Sequence record: PP892525.1
Reading direction: 5' to 3' (one strand)
From: Escherichia phage vB_EcoS_I14
Length of the DNA stretch: 64,000 nucleotides
A model generated the notes under the pieces. It had not been told where the DNA came from, ran no database searches, and saw nothing but the letters and a program-made list of their open reading frames with translations. The position numbers were made by a program, and so were the translations under genes. The stretch's first letter is position 1, and each line of letters opens with the position of its first letter. Below are positions 35 through 44,902 of this stretch, in pieces.

Positions 35-1012
35 TTAATTGTAATCTTTGACATATTTCGCAGCTCTAGCCAAGATTCTATCAATGTCGCCTTGAGACAG
101 CTTCTCGACTTCACGGAAGTAAAGTTCAAGTTCACCTAACATATCAAGATCAACAAGATTTAACTTAGCGTCTTTAGTAACTCGATGGTTAATCTTCTTA
201 TCTAATAAATCAGAGTCTTTGATAGACTTTAATTGAACAACGTCACCAGTAACTTCATAGACTACACGATCATAATCACTAGGTTCCATCTCTTCACCGG
301 CTCCGATTGTTTTACGAATCAGTTGTGGTAAATCACCTAGTTCAATCCATTCTACTTTTAATGTGTCGGTATCGACGATAAAGCAACCATTTGTACCTTT
401 TGTGCGTTCTCTATGGAACGATGTAGTTAATGGAGACCCTGGGTAGAGAAGTCTAGTAGATCCGATAGTCTGGCTATTAGTATAAGAATGTAAATCTCCA
501 GCAATTACAGTATCATAACAGTTGTACTTAGTTAGATCAATTTCTGGTTTTACATGTGGAGGGATTTCACCACGAACATGCGTGAAACATAGTTTTGATT
601 CAGACGGTTTCCACTTAGACTTATGGATCTCATCATACGGAACAATATCAAATTCAGGGGAACGATATGGTTTGGTAATTACTTCCCACTTTCCACTAGT
701 TACTTTATTAATAACCCCCGCATAATGATACAGACATGAAATGGTTTTAGTTAACATTTCATGATTTCCAGTAAAGATTTTGCCTGGATGGTCGAGTCTT
801 GACATGAACTGTTCAAGCAGTTCTATTTCTTCTGACGACGGGTCGGCAACATCAAGTATATCACCACCAGCAATATGAAGATCACAGTTATGATTATGGA
901 ATATATCATTTAACCGTTCTCCTAGCATCAGGAAGCGACGCTTCTGCCATTCCTTTGGAACTTTATCTTGTCCTAGTTTGATATGATGATCAGCACTAAA
1001 TAATATTCTCAT
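35..1012 (-). CDS. SbcD/Mre11-like metallophosphoesterase nuclease (T5 D12-like)
   Basis: 325 aa; N-terminal DHH, GD and GNHE calcineurin-like motifs; sits downstream of the D10-like helicase and D11-like ORF as in T5. Confidence 0.8.
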   Translation of the reverse strand: MRILFSADHHIKLGQDKVPKEWQKRRFLMLGERLNDIFHNHNCDLHIAGGDILDVADPSSEEIELLEQFMSRLDHPGKIFTGNHEMLTKTISCLYHYAGVINKVTSGKWEVITKPYRSPEFDIVPYDEIHKSKWKPSESKLCFTHVRGEIPPHVKPEIDLTKYNCYDTVIAGDLHSYTNSQTIGSTRLLYPGSPLTTSFHRERTKGTNGCFIVDTDTLKVEWIELGDLPQLIRKTIGAGEEMEPSDYDRVVYEVTGDVVQLKSIKDSDLLDKKINHRVTKDAKLNLVDLDMLGELELYFREVEKLSQGDIDRILARAAKYVKDYN

Positions 1013-35718: not shown

Positions 35719-35790
35719 TAGTAACACTGCCGTCCTAGTATAATTGGTATTATCAAGCCGTAACTGGTGGAAGATGTAGGTTCGAATCCT
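35719..35790 (+). tRNA. tRNA-like element, anticodon arm not foldable
   Basis: T-arm GTAGG-TTCGAAT-CCTAC and acceptor GCCGTCC/GGTCGGT with one mismatch; no convincing D or anticodon stem; no CCA. Confidence 0.3.
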
Positions 35791-36293
35791 ACGGTCGGTA
35801 AGAACTGGATAACTGATGCTTTTAACGTAAAAGCTTCCGAGGTTAGTTGCGCACTGCCTAAACCACGCGGTAGTTGGTTCCAGACTAACCAACCAGTCTG
35901 CTGAATAGTTTTATTACGATTTAACTATGTCCAGGCTAAAGAAGAACTTTAGAAGGTATTTCTAGGATAGTGAAGTTCTTTCTCCATATCGGAGTAGTTT
36001 TTCAAGCTATCCACAAAGTGGGAAATGCTGACATGAGAGATGTCACTAATGGTGCACAATAGCACAGGTAATTCGCGATAACTCCTGTTGAGTAGCAGCA
36101 AAAGGCGGGAAGTCATGACCCCAAGCCTAACCGAGTCCTCAATATACCGCAGGACATAACCACTAAGTCACCCTGACTTAAACTGGAAAATAATAGACGT
36201 TACTGTATTTTGTCTTGAAATACTTAATGAGTGAGACTTATGATTCTCCCGGTATCGTCTGTATTTTTAAGAGTTTTTACGAGAGTTCTTAAA

Positions 36294-38091: not shown

Positions 38092-38169
38092 GGTTCTCAA
38101 GCTCATATGGTATGAGCACCCGGCTCATAACCGGAAGGTACGTAGGTTCGAATCCTCGGGGAGCCACCA
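38092..38169 (+). tRNA. tRNA with CAT anticodon (Met or Ile2), tentative
   Basis: Acceptor GGTTCTC/GGGAGCC; D-stem GCTC/GAGC; anticodon loop CTCATAA; T-stem has two mismatches; CCA encoded. Confidence 0.5.
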
Positions 38170-41073: not shown

Positions 41074-41175
41074 AATTCTGTGTAGAGTTAAGTAAACCGG
41101 TAGCCAACCAGCTATCATTGCTGACATCGAATTCAGCCACAGATACCATTTTCATTAATAACTGAGGAAACAAGC

Positions 41176-41821: not shown

Positions 41822-42213
41822 CAAAATTTCAGTGCAGAACACGGAGCTAGCAATTCGGAAGTGCTGACTCATGATAAGCTGCCTATGTACTTGCGAAGCG
41901 GTCGTGTCCAAGACTCGGACTCTTGCACTGAAAACAATCAAACATTCTAGCGTGGTTGATGGGGAAACCAGCTTGGCTAGGGCAGAAGCTCGTTCGATTC
42001 GAGTGAAAGAATGGTTCTCGTAAGTCCGCACAAGTGATAGCAGGTTCGAGTCCTGTCTAGAATGACACTATAAAGTTTACTTATTATGTAGGTTCCGATA
42101 GATCGGCGGGTCTATTCTGGCATTTAAGAGAAGTCTCGCAAACTTTTTTGTCAGCCGTGGGGTTGGTAGCCTCCAGGTGGCCTACACAATAAGTAAATTT
42201 ATTAAAAATTCAT

Positions 42214-42964: not shown

Positions 42965-43324
42965 TTGCAAATGCAATTATCAAGCAAGGTTCAAGGCTAT
43001 TTCGGTCATGTAACAATGGAGTTCGCTATCTCTAAAGGTTGGGACTTCGAACAAGATTTAGCTGAGTTCTACAAAGATATTGATCTGAACGTACCATATA
43101 TGGGACTTTCTACTGGTCAGGAGATCACAGAAGCCGATGTATTCAAGGCAAGTCAAGGTGAGGTAACACCTAGTTTTGCCGAGTTCTGGTTAGGCATTAC
43201 GTTAAAAGAAGATGCACCAGATAGTGGTGTACTAATGTCTAGTTTGCACTCTGGAAGTTCCGATTACCTTTTCATTAGCGATGTTAAGGAAATACAAGAA
43301 GTCTGCAAAAATGTACTTGCTTGA
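42965..43324 (+). CDS. hypothetical protein
   Basis: 119 aa ORF. Confidence 0.5.
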   Translation: MQMQLSSKVQGYFGHVTMEFAISKGWDFEQDLAEFYKDIDLNVPYMGLSTGQEITEADVFKASQGEVTPSFAEFWLGITLKEDAPDSGVLMSSLHSGSSDYLFISDVKEIQEVCKNVLA

Positions 43325-43345
43325 TGCTTAATTTCTTGTTATAAT
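43317..43345 (+). promoter_or_regulatory. sigma70-type promoter preceding an ORF-free segment and tRNA-Ala
   Basis: TTGCTT-17bp-TATAAT; -35 overlaps the end of CDS 42965-43324. Confidence 0.7.
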
Positions 43346-43583
43346 ATTTATATAAATTGATGAGGATTTCTCCTCATCATAGTTCACTAAGGTATTAGCT
43401 CGACCTAGGACTGGCTGCCAAAAAGCACGATCCCTACGATTCGGGAGAAGTTCTAGATTAGTCCACTAGATTCAGCGGCAACTGAATAGTGTATTGGGTT
43501 TGCGAGATGACGCGGTTCCTTCCGCTCGAAGCGAAGGTGCTGTAGTTACGCCGAGCTAATAGCCTTAGTAAACTAAAGAATTT

Positions 43584-43657
43584 GGGGATATAGTTTAATG
43601 GTAGAACATCTGCTTTGCACGCAGAAGACGAGGGTTCAACTCCCTCTTTCTCCACCA
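43584..43657 (+). tRNA. tRNA-Ala(TGC)
   Basis: Acceptor GGGGATA/TTTCTCC with G3-U70; anticodon stem TCTGC/GCAGA, loop TTTGCAC; T-arm GAGGG-TTCAACT-CCCTC; CCA encoded. Confidence 0.7.
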
Positions 43658-43663
43658 AAATTC

Positions 43664-43748
43664 GGGGCTATGCTGGAACTGGTAGACAATACGGCCTTAG
43701 ATTCCGTAGCTTAAATGCGTGGGAGTTCGAGTCTCCCTAGCCCCACCA
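43664..43748 (+). tRNA. tRNA-Leu(TAG), type II
   Basis: Perfect acceptor GGGGCTA/TAGCCCC; anticodon loop CTTAGAT; long variable arm; T-loop GTTCGAGTC; CCA encoded. Confidence 0.7.
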
Positions 43749-43764
43749 ACTTATAGGGTAATGT

Positions 43765-44349
43765 ATGCAGTTTGTACCAATAAAAGATGCACCAGGGTAT
43801 TTAGTAAATGAAACAGGGGATGTGTTATCTACATTTACTAATAAAATTTTATCAAGATATATAGTTGATGGATACCCTGCTGTAAAATTACAGATAAATG
43901 GTAAGCAAACTTCGGTACTTATACACCGAATTATTTCTCATGTATTTGGGGACTTATATAATCTATTTGACCCTGAATTAGAAGTAGATCACAAGGATAG
44001 AGATAGGCTGAATCTATCTAAAGATAATCTTCAAGTTTTATCAAAAATAGAACATCAGAAGAAAACTAATAAAGATAATGGATGGTCTGATAGTAGAGTA
44101 CCTTGCCCCTTATGTGGAAATCTAATGCTTCAGAGATCAGTAACATGTACAAATTGTAAGCCAAAACCTACAGGAAAGTTAATAAAACCAGAGTTGTCCT
44201 TAGAAGACATAACTGAAAAGGTTTTATTAATGGGGTGGGTTAAGGCAGCTAAAGATCTAGAAGTATCAGAGTCCACTTTACGTAGACGATATACTAAACT
44301 AACCGGATTAAGCCCAAAAGTATTAACAGAACAACGGAAAAGCAAATAG
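43765..44349 (+). CDS. HNH homing endonuclease
   Basis: 194 aa; HNH motif VDHKDRDRLNLSKDNLQVL; C-terminal HTH-like tail; within tRNA cluster. Confidence 0.75.
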   Translation: MQFVPIKDAPGYLVNETGDVLSTFTNKILSRYIVDGYPAVKLQINGKQTSVLIHRIISHVFGDLYNLFDPELEVDHKDRDRLNLSKDNLQVLSKIEHQKKTNKDNGWSDSRVPCPLCGNLMLQRSVTCTNCKPKPTGKLIKPELSLEDITEKVLLMGWVKAAKDLEVSESTLRRRYTKLTGLSPKVLTEQRKSK

Positions 44350-44536: not shown

Positions 44537-44902
44537 AATCTTGAAGTATGCCGGAATCGGTAGACGGGGCTGCCTAAAAGGTTTATAGGGAACATCCACT
44601 CCCTGCAACATACCTCATAAAGCGGCTGAGATAAATGGTCTATCTCGTGAAGGTTCAAGTCCTTCTGCTTCTTGATACATCTATGGCTCAAAGTGTAACG
44701 GTGCTATTTGATGCTCTTGGTAAGACTTCCCCGACATGCGTTCGGGAGTAAGCTGCTAAGGCTAGGGTAGAAGAGTTTCTGAGAGCCGCCACAATTGAAA
44801 ATTCGTACTCGTCTTGAGCTGCGTGCAATAGGAGATAACTTGATTAGTATTCTAGAACATGCTAATTGAGGAAGGTTTCGCTAACCCTGCGAGTTTTCAA
44901 TT

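What the first reader, a model, noticed from the sequence alone, without database searches (positions are those of the whole stretch)
43346..43583. Promoter followed by about 240 nt of ORF-free sequence beginning with a hairpin, upstream of tRNA-Ala and tRNA-Leu
Promoter 43317-43345 is followed immediately by the hairpin GATGAGGATTTCTCCTCATC (about 43359-43378) and a GC-richer ORF-free stretch (CGCGGTTCCTTCCGCTCGAAGCGAAGG near 43511-43537) before the tRNAs. This is consistent with a leader or small RNA processed away from the tRNAs.
Basis: seen in the sequence. Interest (0 to 1): 0.5.

Follow-up and report, generated by a model that had tools for sequence, protein, structure and literature searches.

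The report
Phage T5 stable RNA "RNA2H" gene
The ORF-free stretch is the gene for RNA2H, a 172-nt stable RNA of phage T5 that databases already list with unknown function; it sits between a strong promoter and two tRNA genes and has a conserved pseudoknotted fold found across T5-like phages.

Summary

**Identity.** Window 43393-43564 is 98.8% identical to T5 misc_RNA "rna2H, stable RNA with unknown functions". The promoter at 43317-43345 corresponds to T5/BF23 "promoter P13b".

**New here.**
- The RNA matches no Rfam family, yet it belongs to a family found in at least five Demerecviridae lineages: Tequintavirus/Epseptimavirus, phage Eos, Klebsiella Sugarlandvirus, Pectobacterium Hongcheonvirus and Aeromonas Shenzhenvirus.
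- It usually lies a few nucleotides upstream of a tRNA gene. Where a promoter could be read (T5 type, Klebsiella, Aeromonas), it lies just downstream of it.
- Covariation supports a 22-bp terminal stalk (P1), hairpins P3-P6 and a loop-to-strand pseudoknot. In all, 36 of 55 pairs show compensatory changes, and the pseudoknot occurs as five different complementary sequence pairs.
- The annotated T5/BF23 ends lie opposite each other in P1 with a 2-nt 3' overhang, which is the RNase III signature.

**Most likely mechanism.** P13b transcript, then RNase III cuts the stalk and RNase P frees the tRNAs, leaving a compact stable RNA. Its own function is untested; I favour a trans-acting accessory role. 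It is dispensable: phage H8 lacks it.

**Verdict.** A known gene with unknown function and a newly defined structure.

The parts
43317..43345 (+). Promoter, homolog of T5/BF23 promoter P13b: -35 TTGCTT 43317-22, extended -10 TGtTATAAT 43337-45. The inferred start site is near A43352.
   Evidence: Read directly. The promoter/leader module occurs 6 times in the window against 0 expected. It aligns to the annotated T5 P13b (annotations). The start site is inferred from spacing only.
43358..43379 (+). H1: a 5'-proximal hairpin of 9 bp with loop UUUC. It sequesters the Shine-Dalgarno-like GAGGA of the generic promoter leader. It is optional in the family.
   Evidence: Relatives have the same stem with a GAAA loop, so the window loop is its reverse complement. 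The apical part is replaced by a ~100-nt insert in 85 phages. H1 is absent in the Klebsiella and Aeromonas versions. A different hairpin occupies this place in the Pectobacterium phage.
43381..43402 (+). P1 5' strand of the 22-bp terminal stalk. The inferred RNase III cut lies between G43392 and U43393.
   Evidence: MFE fold. 12 of 21 P1 pairs show changes on both sides across lineages. The annotated T5/BF23 5' end maps here.
43393..43564 (+). Mature RNA2H equivalent (172 nt).
   Evidence: blastn of T5 rna2H gives 98.8% identity over 172/172 nt. CM R1 scores 237 bits on 43381-43574, E = 1.8e-66.
43408..43412 (+). Pseudoknot 5' strand, GGACU.
   Evidence: Complementary to the P4 loop in every lineage, with five different sequence pairs.
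43425..43428 (+). P2' 5' strand GCAC, a tentative 4-bp helix with GUGU at 43489-43492. It is preceded by the invariant CCAAAAA.
   Evidence: G.U becomes A-U in Klebsiella phages and C-G becomes U-A in Aeromonas phages. The evidence is thin.
43431..43446 (+). P3 hairpin: peripheral, replaced by non-homologous longer hairpins in other phages.
   Evidence: The basal pairs covary (C-G/U-A, C-G/G-C) and the interior is replaced outright.
43452..43470 (+). P4 hairpin (UCUAG/CUAGA). Its loop AUUAGUCCA carries the pseudoknot 3' strand AGUCC at 43460-43464.
   Evidence: Double compensatory change in SE3/SB13. All 6 pairs covary across lineages.
43471..43486 (+). P5 hairpin (UUCAG/CUGAA, loop CGGCAA).
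   Evidence: All 5 pairs covary across lineages, e.g. ACGC/GCGU, AAGG/CCUU, ACUCUG/CAGAGU.
43487..43501 (+). J5/6 joining strand with the conserved AGUGUA motif.
   Evidence: Conserved in all eight lineage representatives.
43502..43551 (+). P6 long hairpin.
   Evidence: 8 of 14 pairs have changes on both sides, and G.U pairs fix the + strand.
43552..43574 (+). P1 3' strand with a conserved bulged purine (G43562). The inferred RNase III cut lies between C43564 and U43565.
   Evidence: The annotated T5/BF23 3' end maps here and gives a 2-nt 3' overhang relative to the 5' end.
43575..43583 (+). 9-nt spacer between the stalk and tRNA-Ala. It would be removed by RNase P cleavage at 43583/43584.
   Evidence: RNase P cleavage is inferred from general tRNA biology.
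43584..43748 (+). tRNA-Ala(UGC) 43584-43657 and tRNA-Leu(UAG) 43664-43748, co-transcribed downstream.
   Evidence: ARAGORN and Rfam.

Best explanation
Window 43317-43583 is the gene for phage T5 'RNA2H' together with its promoter P13b. The proposed pathway has five steps.

1. Host sigma-70 RNA polymerase starts near 43352 at a strong T5-type early promoter.
2. The first ~230 nt of the transcript fold into an optional 5' hairpin (H1) and a 194-nt domain. In that domain the 5' and 3' ends pair into a 22-bp stalk (P1). The stalk encloses a multi-helix core (P2', P3, P4, P5, P6), and the P4 loop pairs back to the strand just after P1 to form a pseudoknot.
3. RNase III cuts both strands in the middle of P1, at the conserved AAGG / (bulged purine)CC-UU box. 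This releases a 172-nt RNA (43393-43564) closed by a 10-bp helix with a 2-nt 3' overhang.
4. RNase P cuts at the 5' end of tRNA-Ala and frees the tRNAs.
5. The compact, nuclease-resistant RNA accumulates. It most probably acts in trans as an accessory, non-essential factor that is recognised through its invariant unpaired nucleotides, for example by a host or phage protein of the RNA-processing, translation or tRNA-defence sphere.

Shown here: identity with T5 RNA2H, the promoter family, the secondary structure and pseudoknot (by covariation), the + strand assignment, the distribution and genomic position, and dispensability.

Inferred: the start site, the RNase III and RNase P steps, and accumulation (taken from database annotation). 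The trans-acting role is a reasoned guess.
For: **Identity**
- T5 rna2H aligns to 43393-43564 at 98.8% over 172 nt.
- T5 and BF23 records annotate promoter P13b, then RNA2H 'stable RNA', then tRNA-Ala and tRNA-Leu.

**Promoter**
- The module occurs 6 times in the window against 0 expected. The other five copies drive ORFs.

**Structure**
- MFE z-score is -6.1.
- On 28 T5-type sequences, 96.8% of cells are paired and 13 pairs have changes on both sides; slid controls give 26-40%.
- With Klebsiella and Eos homologs, 26 of 55 pairs covary.
- With Pectobacterium and Aeromonas homologs, 36 of 55 pairs covary and 95.6% are paired, against 31-38% when slid.
- Pseudoknot: the strand aligned at columns 28-32 finds a complement in the P4 loop in every lineage. 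The pairs are GGACU:AGUCC, GAGCC:GGCUC, GAGUC:GACUC, GAACC:GGUUC and GACG:CGUC. Loop-shuffle p is 0.008-0.03 for each.

**Strand**
- Many G.U pairs occur on the + strand.
- The reverse strand scores 30 bits against 237 bits for the + strand.

**Processing**
- The annotated ends of T5 and BF23 RNA2H fall at alignment columns 13 and 210. These are opposite each other in P1, leave a 2-nt 3' overhang, and have about 10-12 bp on each side.
- The AAGG/CCUU box and the bulged purine are conserved even in Aeromonas phages, where the rest of P1 differs.

**Selection on the core sequence**
- Core blocks are 100% identical where the neighbouring ORF is 91% identical at DNA level.
- The core is nearly identical where that protein is only 65% identical.
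- P3 and P6, by contrast, are swapped for non-homologous hairpins.

**Position**
- It lies directly upstream of a tRNA in T5 (9 nt), Klebsiella (about 3 nt), Pectobacterium (6 nt) and Aeromonas (4 nt, heading a 17-tRNA array).

**Accessory status**
- Phage H8 has only 6 tRNAs and no RNA2H in the 100 kb scanned.
Against: - No expression or end-mapping data could be examined here. I do not know whether the annotated 172-nt ends were measured or predicted, so the RNase III step rests on geometry.
- P1, P2', P5 and the pseudoknot are invariant within T5/Epseptimavirus phages. Their support comes from a few independent lineages.
- Alignments A4 and A5 were fitted to the model by Infernal, which biases the pair counts upward.
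- Nothing identifies a binding partner or target. The promoter-proximal, tRNA-proximal position in every lineage would also fit a purely cis-acting role.
- In some phages an ORF sits between the RNA and the tRNA (L007, L034).
- One Klebsiella phage record (vB_Kpn_3) has a disrupted P1.
- The RNA is absent from the Vibrio phage Achelous tRNA region, which shows that tRNA arrays do not need it.
Confidence: 0.7

Rival explanations
1. Purely cis-acting leader. The folded RNA serves only the downstream transcript. It could be a processing or insulation module: the RNase III stalk separates the tRNA precursor from the 5' end and from upstream read-through. Alternatively it could be a put-like or rrn-leader-like element that makes RNA polymerase resistant to Rho or intrinsic termination across the long, untranslated tRNA array. 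On this view the released 172-nt RNA is a stable by-product.
For: - It is always close to the 5' side of tRNA genes. It is promoter-proximal where a promoter could be read (T5 type, Klebsiella, Aeromonas; no convincing promoter in Pectobacterium).
- In the Aeromonas phage it heads a 17-tRNA array.
- There is one copy per genome.
- rRNA operons combine a leader element with RNase III leader-trailer helices (abstracts of PMC11404451 and PMC10250234, shown).
Against: - A processing stalk alone does not explain the invariant unpaired nucleotides and the covarying pseudoknot of the core.
- RNase III cutting of P1 would sever the RNA from the elongating polymerase. From my own knowledge of HK022 put RNA, that abolishes put-type action.
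- No boxA-like sequence is conserved across lineages.
- Some phages have an ORF, not a tRNA, directly downstream.
- The Vibrio phage tRNA array has no such leader.
Confidence: 0.22
2. Riboswitch-like sensor. The pseudoknotted core binds a small ligand or an uncharged tRNA and controls transcription of the downstream tRNAs.
For: A compact pseudoknotted fold with invariant unpaired nucleotides, located in a 5' leader.
Against: - There is no expression platform. No terminator-like hairpin with a U-tract follows P1, and there is no downstream ORF or SD to sequester.
- The alternative pairing seen in the T5 MFE fold (CUAGGACU with AGUUCUAG) is broken in SE3/SB13. By my reading of the Klebsiella and Eos sequences it is absent there too. 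No conserved switch is therefore visible.
- The downstream tRNA differs between lineages (Ala, Leu, Tyr), so there is no specifier logic.
- No Rfam riboswitch matches.
Confidence: 0.04
3. A DNA-level element (replication origin, recombination or homing-endonuclease site, cruciform) rather than an RNA.
For: - There are long inverted repeats, and the minus strand folds equally well by MFE (z = -7.5).
- The region lies among HNH homing-endonuclease genes.
Against: - Numerous G.U pairs exist only on the + strand. They would be C.A mismatches on the other strand or in DNA.
- The covariance model scores 237 bits on the + strand against 30 bits on the - strand.
- A loop-to-strand pseudoknot covaries.
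- The element sits directly behind a promoter, and T5/BF23 records list it as a stable RNA.
Confidence: 0.02

Closest known systems
Phage T5 / BF23 RNA2H (misc_RNA rna2H in GenBank AY543070.1 and AJ604530.1) with promoter P13b
   Same: It is the same gene: 98.8% identity over 172 nt and the same flanks (promoter P13b upstream, tRNA-Ala and tRNA-Leu downstream).
   Different: The gene itself does not differ. The window copy has an inverted H1 loop and an extra ORF (119 aa) upstream of the promoter. The database entries give only 'stable RNA with unknown functions'. No structure, family or distribution had been attached, it is in no Rfam family, and full-text searches found no paper on it.
RNase III processing stalks: rRNA leader-trailer helices and the T7 early-mRNA RNase III sites
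   Same: A helix of 20 bp or more, formed by sequences that flank a structured RNA, with staggered ends leaving a 2-nt 3' overhang in mid-helix.
   Different: Here the excised product is a 172-nt RNA of unknown function, and the stalk lies upstream of tRNAs rather than around an rRNA. Dependence on RNase III was not tested.
Phage T4 species 1 and species 2 RNAs (rnaC, rnaD)
   Same: Small stable RNAs of unknown function encoded within a virulent coliphage's tRNA cluster and matured from the tRNA transcripts (their processing is from my own knowledge).
   Different: There is no detectable sequence or structure similarity: CM R2 with filters off scores at most about 10 bits anywhere in the T4 region, which is noise. 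The T4 RNAs lie at the 3' end of the cluster, not behind a promoter.
Promoter-proximal antiterminator RNAs (HK022 putL/putR; Bacillus EAR; rrn boxA leader)
   Same: Structured, cis-encoded phage or bacterial RNAs placed just downstream of a promoter and ahead of a long operon.
   Different: put consists of two plain stem-loops of about 70 nt without a closing stalk or pseudoknot (my own knowledge). No Rfam antiterminator family matches, and no boxA is conserved. Cleavage of P1 would detach the RNA from the polymerase.
Bacterial and phage Y-RNA-like RNAs (YrlA) and other tRNA-like RNAs next to tRNA genes
   Same: A long stem formed by the 5' and 3' ends that encloses a multi-hairpin module, encoded next to tRNA genes.
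   Different: No match to Rfam Y RNA or tRNA-like models at E up to 10. No T-arm motif is present. The core is held by a loop-to-strand pseudoknot. From my own knowledge E. coli, a host of these phages, has no Ro protein.

Membership tests
T5/BF23 RNA2H | Sequence homology to T5 AY543070.1 31808-31979 | tested here: met
   98.8% identity, 172/172 nt, window 43393-43564. 95% identity to BF23 over the whole region.
T5/BF23 RNA2H | Position between promoter P13b and tRNA-Ala/tRNA-Leu | tested here: met
   Annotations; window layout.
T5/BF23 RNA2H | Accumulates as a stable RNA in infected cells | not testable with these tools
   Only the database note 'stable RNA' is available. No expression data could be consulted.
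RNase III-processed stalk | Double-stranded helix of about two turns (20 bp or more) | tested here: met
   P1 is 21-22 bp with one bulge. 12 of 21 pairs covary across lineages and 98.7% of cells are paired.
RNase III-processed stalk | Product ends staggered with a 2-nt 3' overhang | tested here: inconclusive
   The annotated ends fall at columns 13 and 210, and column 13 pairs with 207/208, which leaves CC-3' overhanging. It is unknown whether those ends were measured.
RNase III-processed stalk | Cleavage depends on the rnc gene product | not testable with these tools
   Needs an rnc mutant host or in vitro cleavage.
Any Rfam 15 family | Covariance-model match at or near the gathering score | tested here: not met
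   Only tRNA hits were found. Nothing credible overlaps the element, at E up to 10 for the window and the Pectobacterium version and up to 5 for the Eos, Klebsiella and Epseptimavirus versions.
Riboswitch | Expression platform (terminator or SD-sequestering helix) coupled to the aptamer | tested here: not met
   No + strand terminator-like site follows P1, no ORF follows, and the alternative pairing is not conserved.
put-type antiterminator RNA | Two stem-loops that act on the transcribing polymerase in cis | not tested
   The architecture differs (stalk, five helices and a pseudoknot). Activity on RNA polymerase cannot be tested here.
T4 rnaC / rnaD | Sequence or structure homology | tested here: not met
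   CM R2 with filters off on T4 69000-74000 gives no hit above about 10 bits.
tRNA-like / Y-RNA-like (YrlA) | T-arm/D-arm mimic or Ro-binding helix detectable by the family models | tested here: not met
   No such hit on the element. ARAGORN calls no tRNA or tmRNA in 43346-43583.

The most novel reading that the evidence does not exclude
RNA2H founds a previously undescribed class of pseudoknotted phage non-coding RNA that is conserved across Demerecviridae. Its fold would be recognised by a specific partner. Two versions fit the evidence: (a) a trans-acting decoy or inhibitor of a host RNA-processing enzyme or tRNA-targeting defence protein, co-expressed with the phage's counter-defence tRNAs; or (b) a protein-independent modifier of RNA polymerase for the tRNA array. 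Either would be a mechanism not covered by any current RNA family.
Probability: 0.35. Interest if true: 0.75.

Novelty: already known. Interest (0 to 1): 0.45.

Why it matters
T5 is a model phage, and its tRNA region has recently become important because phage tRNAs counter tRNA-cleaving defence systems. The stable RNAs embedded in that region are still listed with unknown functions in the T5 and BF23 records. They are absent from Rfam, they went unmentioned in the recent T5-like genome papers I checked, and many GenBank records annotate spurious 'hypothetical proteins' over them.

This work gives RNA2H three things it lacked:
- a covariation-supported architecture (stalk, five helices and a pseudoknot);
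- a processing model;
- a phylogenetic range of at least five lineages.

That allows correct annotation, and the function question can now be tested with designed stalk, pseudoknot and core mutants.

Tried and rejected
- **Rfam, gathering and E-value modes, on the window and on four divergent versions:** only tRNAs were found.
- **E. coli complete genomes, blastn:** no host or prophage homolog.
- **Single-sequence MFE and RNAalifold model:** this model pairs CUAGGACU with AGUUCUAG and CACUA with UAGUG. I rejected it. SE3/SB13 break those pairs but keep a local P4 hairpin through double compensatory changes, and the Klebsiella and Eos sequences cannot form them.
- **P2 mini-hairpin GCU/AGC:** rejected because it is not formable in Klebsiella phages.
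- **Exact-pattern scans of IMG/VR (three) and metagenomes (one):** only near-identical T5-like copies plus chance hits.
- **Neighbouring ORF119 as a synteny handle:** it reached only T5-like contigs, all with a near-identical RNA.
- **The ~100-nt insert that replaces the H1 apex in 85 phages:** no significant fold, z = -0.8.
- **T4 rnaC/rnaD and the Vibrio phage Achelous tRNA region:** no homolog with filters off.
- **Literature searches for RNA2H, T5 stable RNAs and T5 ncRNA:** nothing relevant in the open library. The Schlafen and BF23 papers mention only the tRNAs. One search failed on a term that was too short.
- **By-eye comparisons, not supported by any tool:** resemblance of AGAACCGGCU to the RNase P RNA CR-V region, of the P5 loop to a D-loop or a CCA-binding UGG, and of the H1 sequence to a hammerhead core. 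The P5 loop GG is itself variable.

Full report
**1. The observation**

The window is the early/tRNA region of a T5-like phage. It carries 24 tRNA genes, all on the + strand, between 36.3 and 46.9 kb.

- -35 TTGCTT at 43317-22, and an extended -10 TGtTATAAT at 43337-45;
- hairpin GATGAGGATTTCTCCTCATC at 43359-78, which is 9 bp when T43358/A43379 are included;
- the GC-richer stretch at 43511-37;
- tRNA-Ala at 43584 and tRNA-Leu at 43664.

No + strand ORF of 25 aa or more lies in 43346-43583.

The generic promoter scan missed this site because its -35 hexamer matches only 3 of 6. However, the 25-nt block made of the -10 and the initial transcribed sequence occurs six times in the window against none expected. 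In the other five copies it is followed by a Shine-Dalgarno sequence and an ATG. It is therefore a genuine, reused T5-type early promoter cassette. Here the SD-like GAGGA is instead locked into hairpin H1 and no start codon follows.

The 232-nt leader folds far better than shuffles: -85.8 against -58.8 +/- 4.4 kcal/mol, z = -6.1.

**2. What it is**

blastn against GenBank phages finds the stretch in 424 records at 80% coverage or more.

Two of these records were annotated by the laboratory that sequenced the T5/BF23 tRNA regions. They read: 'promoter P13b', then misc_RNA 'rna2H / RNA 2H, stable RNA with unknown functions' (172 nt), then tRNA-Ala and tRNA-Leu. The records are BF23 AJ604530.1 and T5 AY543070.1, 31808-31979.

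T5 rna2H aligns to window 43393-43564 at 98.8% identity over its full length. The feature is therefore an already catalogued gene.

It matches no Rfam 15 family, whether in the window or in divergent relatives. It has no counterpart in complete E. coli genomes. I found no paper on it in the searchable library, and the recent genome papers on T5-like phages that I checked discuss only the tRNAs. My recollection that T5/BF23 small RNAs were first resolved on 2-D gels in the 1970s is from memory and was not verified.

**3. Structure within T5-like phages**

I aligned 28 distinct copies (A3). They show a mosaic pattern.
- **Invariant blocks:** the two strands of the terminal stalk, CCUAGGACUGGCUGCCAAAAAGCAC, and the P4-P5-AGUGUAUYGGGUUUG block.
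- **Replaced hairpins:** P3 and P6 are swapped outright for non-homologous hairpins of different length, and recombinants between the types exist.

The basal pairs of P3 and P6 covary. P4 shows a double compensatory change in SE3/SB13 (UCUAG/CUAGA becomes UCUGAU/AUCAGA). That change contradicts the single-sequence MFE and RNAalifold pairing for the region.

On A3, 96.8% of cells are paired, against 26-40% when partners are slid, and 13 pairs show changes on both sides.

The invariant blocks stay 100% identical where the adjacent ORF is 91% identical at DNA level. They stay nearly identical where the encoded protein is only 65% identical. The core sequence, and not only its pairing, is therefore under strong constraint.

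**4. Distant homologs**

Exact-pattern scans of IMG/VR and metagenomes returned only close copies.

A covariance model built from A3 (R1) found a diverged copy in Klebsiella phage Roth37 (83.7 bits, E = 6e-23). It lies directly behind a T5-type promoter and 3 nt upstream of tRNA-Ala/tRNA-Leu, and it has no H1 hairpin. The same model found further Sugarlandvirus variants and a distinct version in phage Eos.

A second model (R2) then found two more:
- Pectobacterium phage DU_PP_V (Hongcheonvirus): 88.6 bits, 6 nt upstream of tRNA-Leu, preceded by a different 5' hairpin.
- Aeromonas phage AhSzq-1 (Shenzhenvirus): 48 bits, E = 2e-12, behind a TTGCCC...TGTTATAAT promoter and 4 nt upstream of the first of 17 tRNAs.

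Four more Aeromonas phages carry the same version, with the same pattern of conserved core and variable P3.

No copy was found in the tRNA regions of Vibrio phage Achelous or of T4, which holds rnaC/rnaD, even with filters off.

**5. The consensus fold**

Across 26 sequences from eight lineages (A5), 36 of 55 pairs have changes on both sides and 95.6% of cells are paired, against 31-38% when slid. By helix:

| Helix | Pairs with changes on both sides |
|---|---|
| P1 | 12 of 21 |
| P4 | 6 of 6 |
| P5 | 5 of 5 |
| P3 | 4 of 5 |
| P6 | 8 of 14 |

Caveat: A4 and A5 were aligned to the model, which favours the structure. The Roth37, Eos, Pectobacterium and Aeromonas sequences can nevertheless be read by eye and show the same pairings.

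*Pseudoknot.* The five nucleotides aligned just after P1 are complementary to the P4 loop in every lineage, and the sequences differ between lineages:
- GGACU:AGUCC in T5;
- GAGCC:GGCUC in Roth37;
- GAGUC:GACUC in phiKp_27;
- GAACC:GGUUC in Eos and the Pectobacterium phage;
- GACG:CGUC in Aeromonas phages.

Composition-preserving loop shuffles reach this complementarity in 0.8-3% of trials per lineage.

*P2'.* A further 4-bp helix (GCAC with GUGU of the invariant AGUGUA) would close P3-P5 into a four-way junction. Its only support is G.U to A-U in Klebsiella phages and one C-G to U-A change in Aeromonas phages. I regard it as tentative.

*Nucleotides conserved in all lineages:* AAGG/CCUU in P1, GG after the pseudoknot strand, CCAA(N)AAA..AC, and AGUNUA..G.

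*Strand.* G.U pairs on the + strand, and 237 bits on the + strand against 30 bits on the - strand, show that this is an RNA of the + strand rather than a DNA structure.

**6. How it most likely works**

*Shown here:* a strong promoter; a transcript whose first ~230 nt form an optional 5' hairpin followed by a 22-bp stalk around a pseudoknotted core; tRNAs immediately downstream.

*Inferred processing.* The ends annotated for T5 and BF23 RNA2H fall at alignment columns 13 and 210. These lie in the middle of P1, opposite each other, with a 2-nt 3' overhang and about 10-12 bp on either side. That is the geometry left by RNase III. The surrounding AAGG / (bulged purine)CC-UU box is the only part of P1 that is conserved even in Aeromonas phages. 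RNase P would cut at the tRNA 5' end, 4-9 nt beyond the stalk. I could not establish whether the annotated ends were measured.

*Function of the released RNA.* This is untested. I favour a trans-acting accessory role for two reasons. First, a processing stalk alone does not explain the invariant unpaired nucleotides and the covarying tertiary contact. Second, peripheral hairpins are freely exchanged while the core is frozen, as expected for a surface recognised by a partner.

A position between a promoter and a tRNA also gives an RNA defined ends without needing a terminator. That could explain the conserved location without any cis function.

The main rival is a cis role in processing, insulation or antitermination for the long untranslated tRNA array, which I put at about 0.2. 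A riboswitch is unlikely because there is no expression platform or conserved alternative pairing. A DNA element is excluded for practical purposes.

The RNA is not essential. The draft genome of Tequintavirus H8 has only six tRNAs and no RNA2H in the 100 kb scanned.

**7. Comparison with known systems**

- It is T5 RNA2H, so membership in that annotated gene is met.
- It resembles rRNA leader-trailer / RNase III stalks in how it is excised (abstracts shown).
- It resembles T4 species 1/2 RNAs in being an orphan stable RNA of a phage tRNA cluster, but it is not homologous to them.
- It shares only its promoter-proximal position with put-type or rrn-type antitermination RNAs.
- It is not a tRNA-like or Y-RNA-like molecule by any model available.

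**8. Verdict**

What is new is the family definition, the covariation-supported pseudoknotted architecture, the RNase III-type end geometry and the range across Demerecviridae.

Interest is moderate. This is an orphan structured RNA in a model phage, with a long-standing unknown function that can now be tested with designed mutants.

Noticed in passing
window 41076-41148, 41943-42067, 42086-42188, 44540-44684, 44685-44791, 44796-44901: The window holds homologs of the six other T5 'stable' or 'tRNA-like' RNAs of unknown function: RNA3, RNA2, RNAIV, RNA1, RNAI and RNAIII, at 85-100% identity. Single-sequence folds pair their 5' and 3' ends. RNAI and RNA3 end in CCA, like acceptor stems. None is in Rfam.
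   Followed up: partly
window 43367-43370: The H1 loop is UUUC here but GAAA (a GNRA tetraloop) in nearly all relatives. The apical GAGGA-loop-UCCUC segment is the exact reverse complement of theirs, which indicates a small hairpin-loop inversion.
   Followed up: partly
L021:884-1012, L008:1898-2026, L007:440-568 (the position of window 43364-43373): In 85 GenBank T5-like phages the apex of H1 is replaced by a ~100-nt insert, 95-100% identical and always one copy per genome. Its fold is not better than shuffles, z = -0.8. Its nature is unknown.
   Followed up: partly
L200:579-791 (Klebsiella phage vB_Kpn_3, MZ079855.1): This is a chimeric copy. The 5' strand of P1 is replaced by generic promoter-leader sequence and the 3' half is of Epseptimavirus type, so the stalk cannot form. 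The record is a partial genome with gaps, so this may be a recombinant or an assembly artefact.
   Followed up: no
L207/L208 (phage H8, AC171169.12, 1-100000): Only six tRNA genes and no RNA2H are present. This is a natural deletion of most of the tRNA region, so the whole block including RNA2H is dispensable. The last 4.4 kb of the record were not scanned.
   Followed up: partly
window 38092-38166 and 35729-35800: Rfam's tRNA model scores 40.3 and 35.5 bits here, but ARAGORN calls no gene. The first corresponds in position to the tRNA-Ile2 that follows tRNA-Ser in BF23.
   Followed up: no
L077:2309-2497(-), L006:420-563(-) and 637-741(-), L080:307-465(-); also Sugarland H132: Several GenBank records annotate minus-strand 'hypothetical protein' CDSs over this RNA. 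No ORF is conserved among lineages, so these are probably mis-annotations.
   Followed up: yes
window 43765-44349: A 194-aa ORF immediately after tRNA-Leu occupies the place of T5 hegC (H-N-H endonuclease TflI) and overlaps the start of tRNA-Ser at 44336. I did not align it to the T5 protein.
   Followed up: no
L070:3087-3210: A weak second hit of model R1 (13.4 bits, E = 0.011) lies about 1 kb downstream of the RNA2H copy on a Logan contig. It was not examined. Similar ~10-bit hits fall on RNAIV in the window and in T5.
   Followed up: no
L199:8655-8675 (Pectobacterium phage DU_PP_V): The hairpin preceding P1 in this phage is followed by UUUAUU and scores as an intrinsic-terminator-like site whose U-tract overlaps the P1 5' strand. 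No convincing promoter lies directly upstream. In this lineage the RNA may be made by read-through or from a more distant promoter.
   Followed up: no
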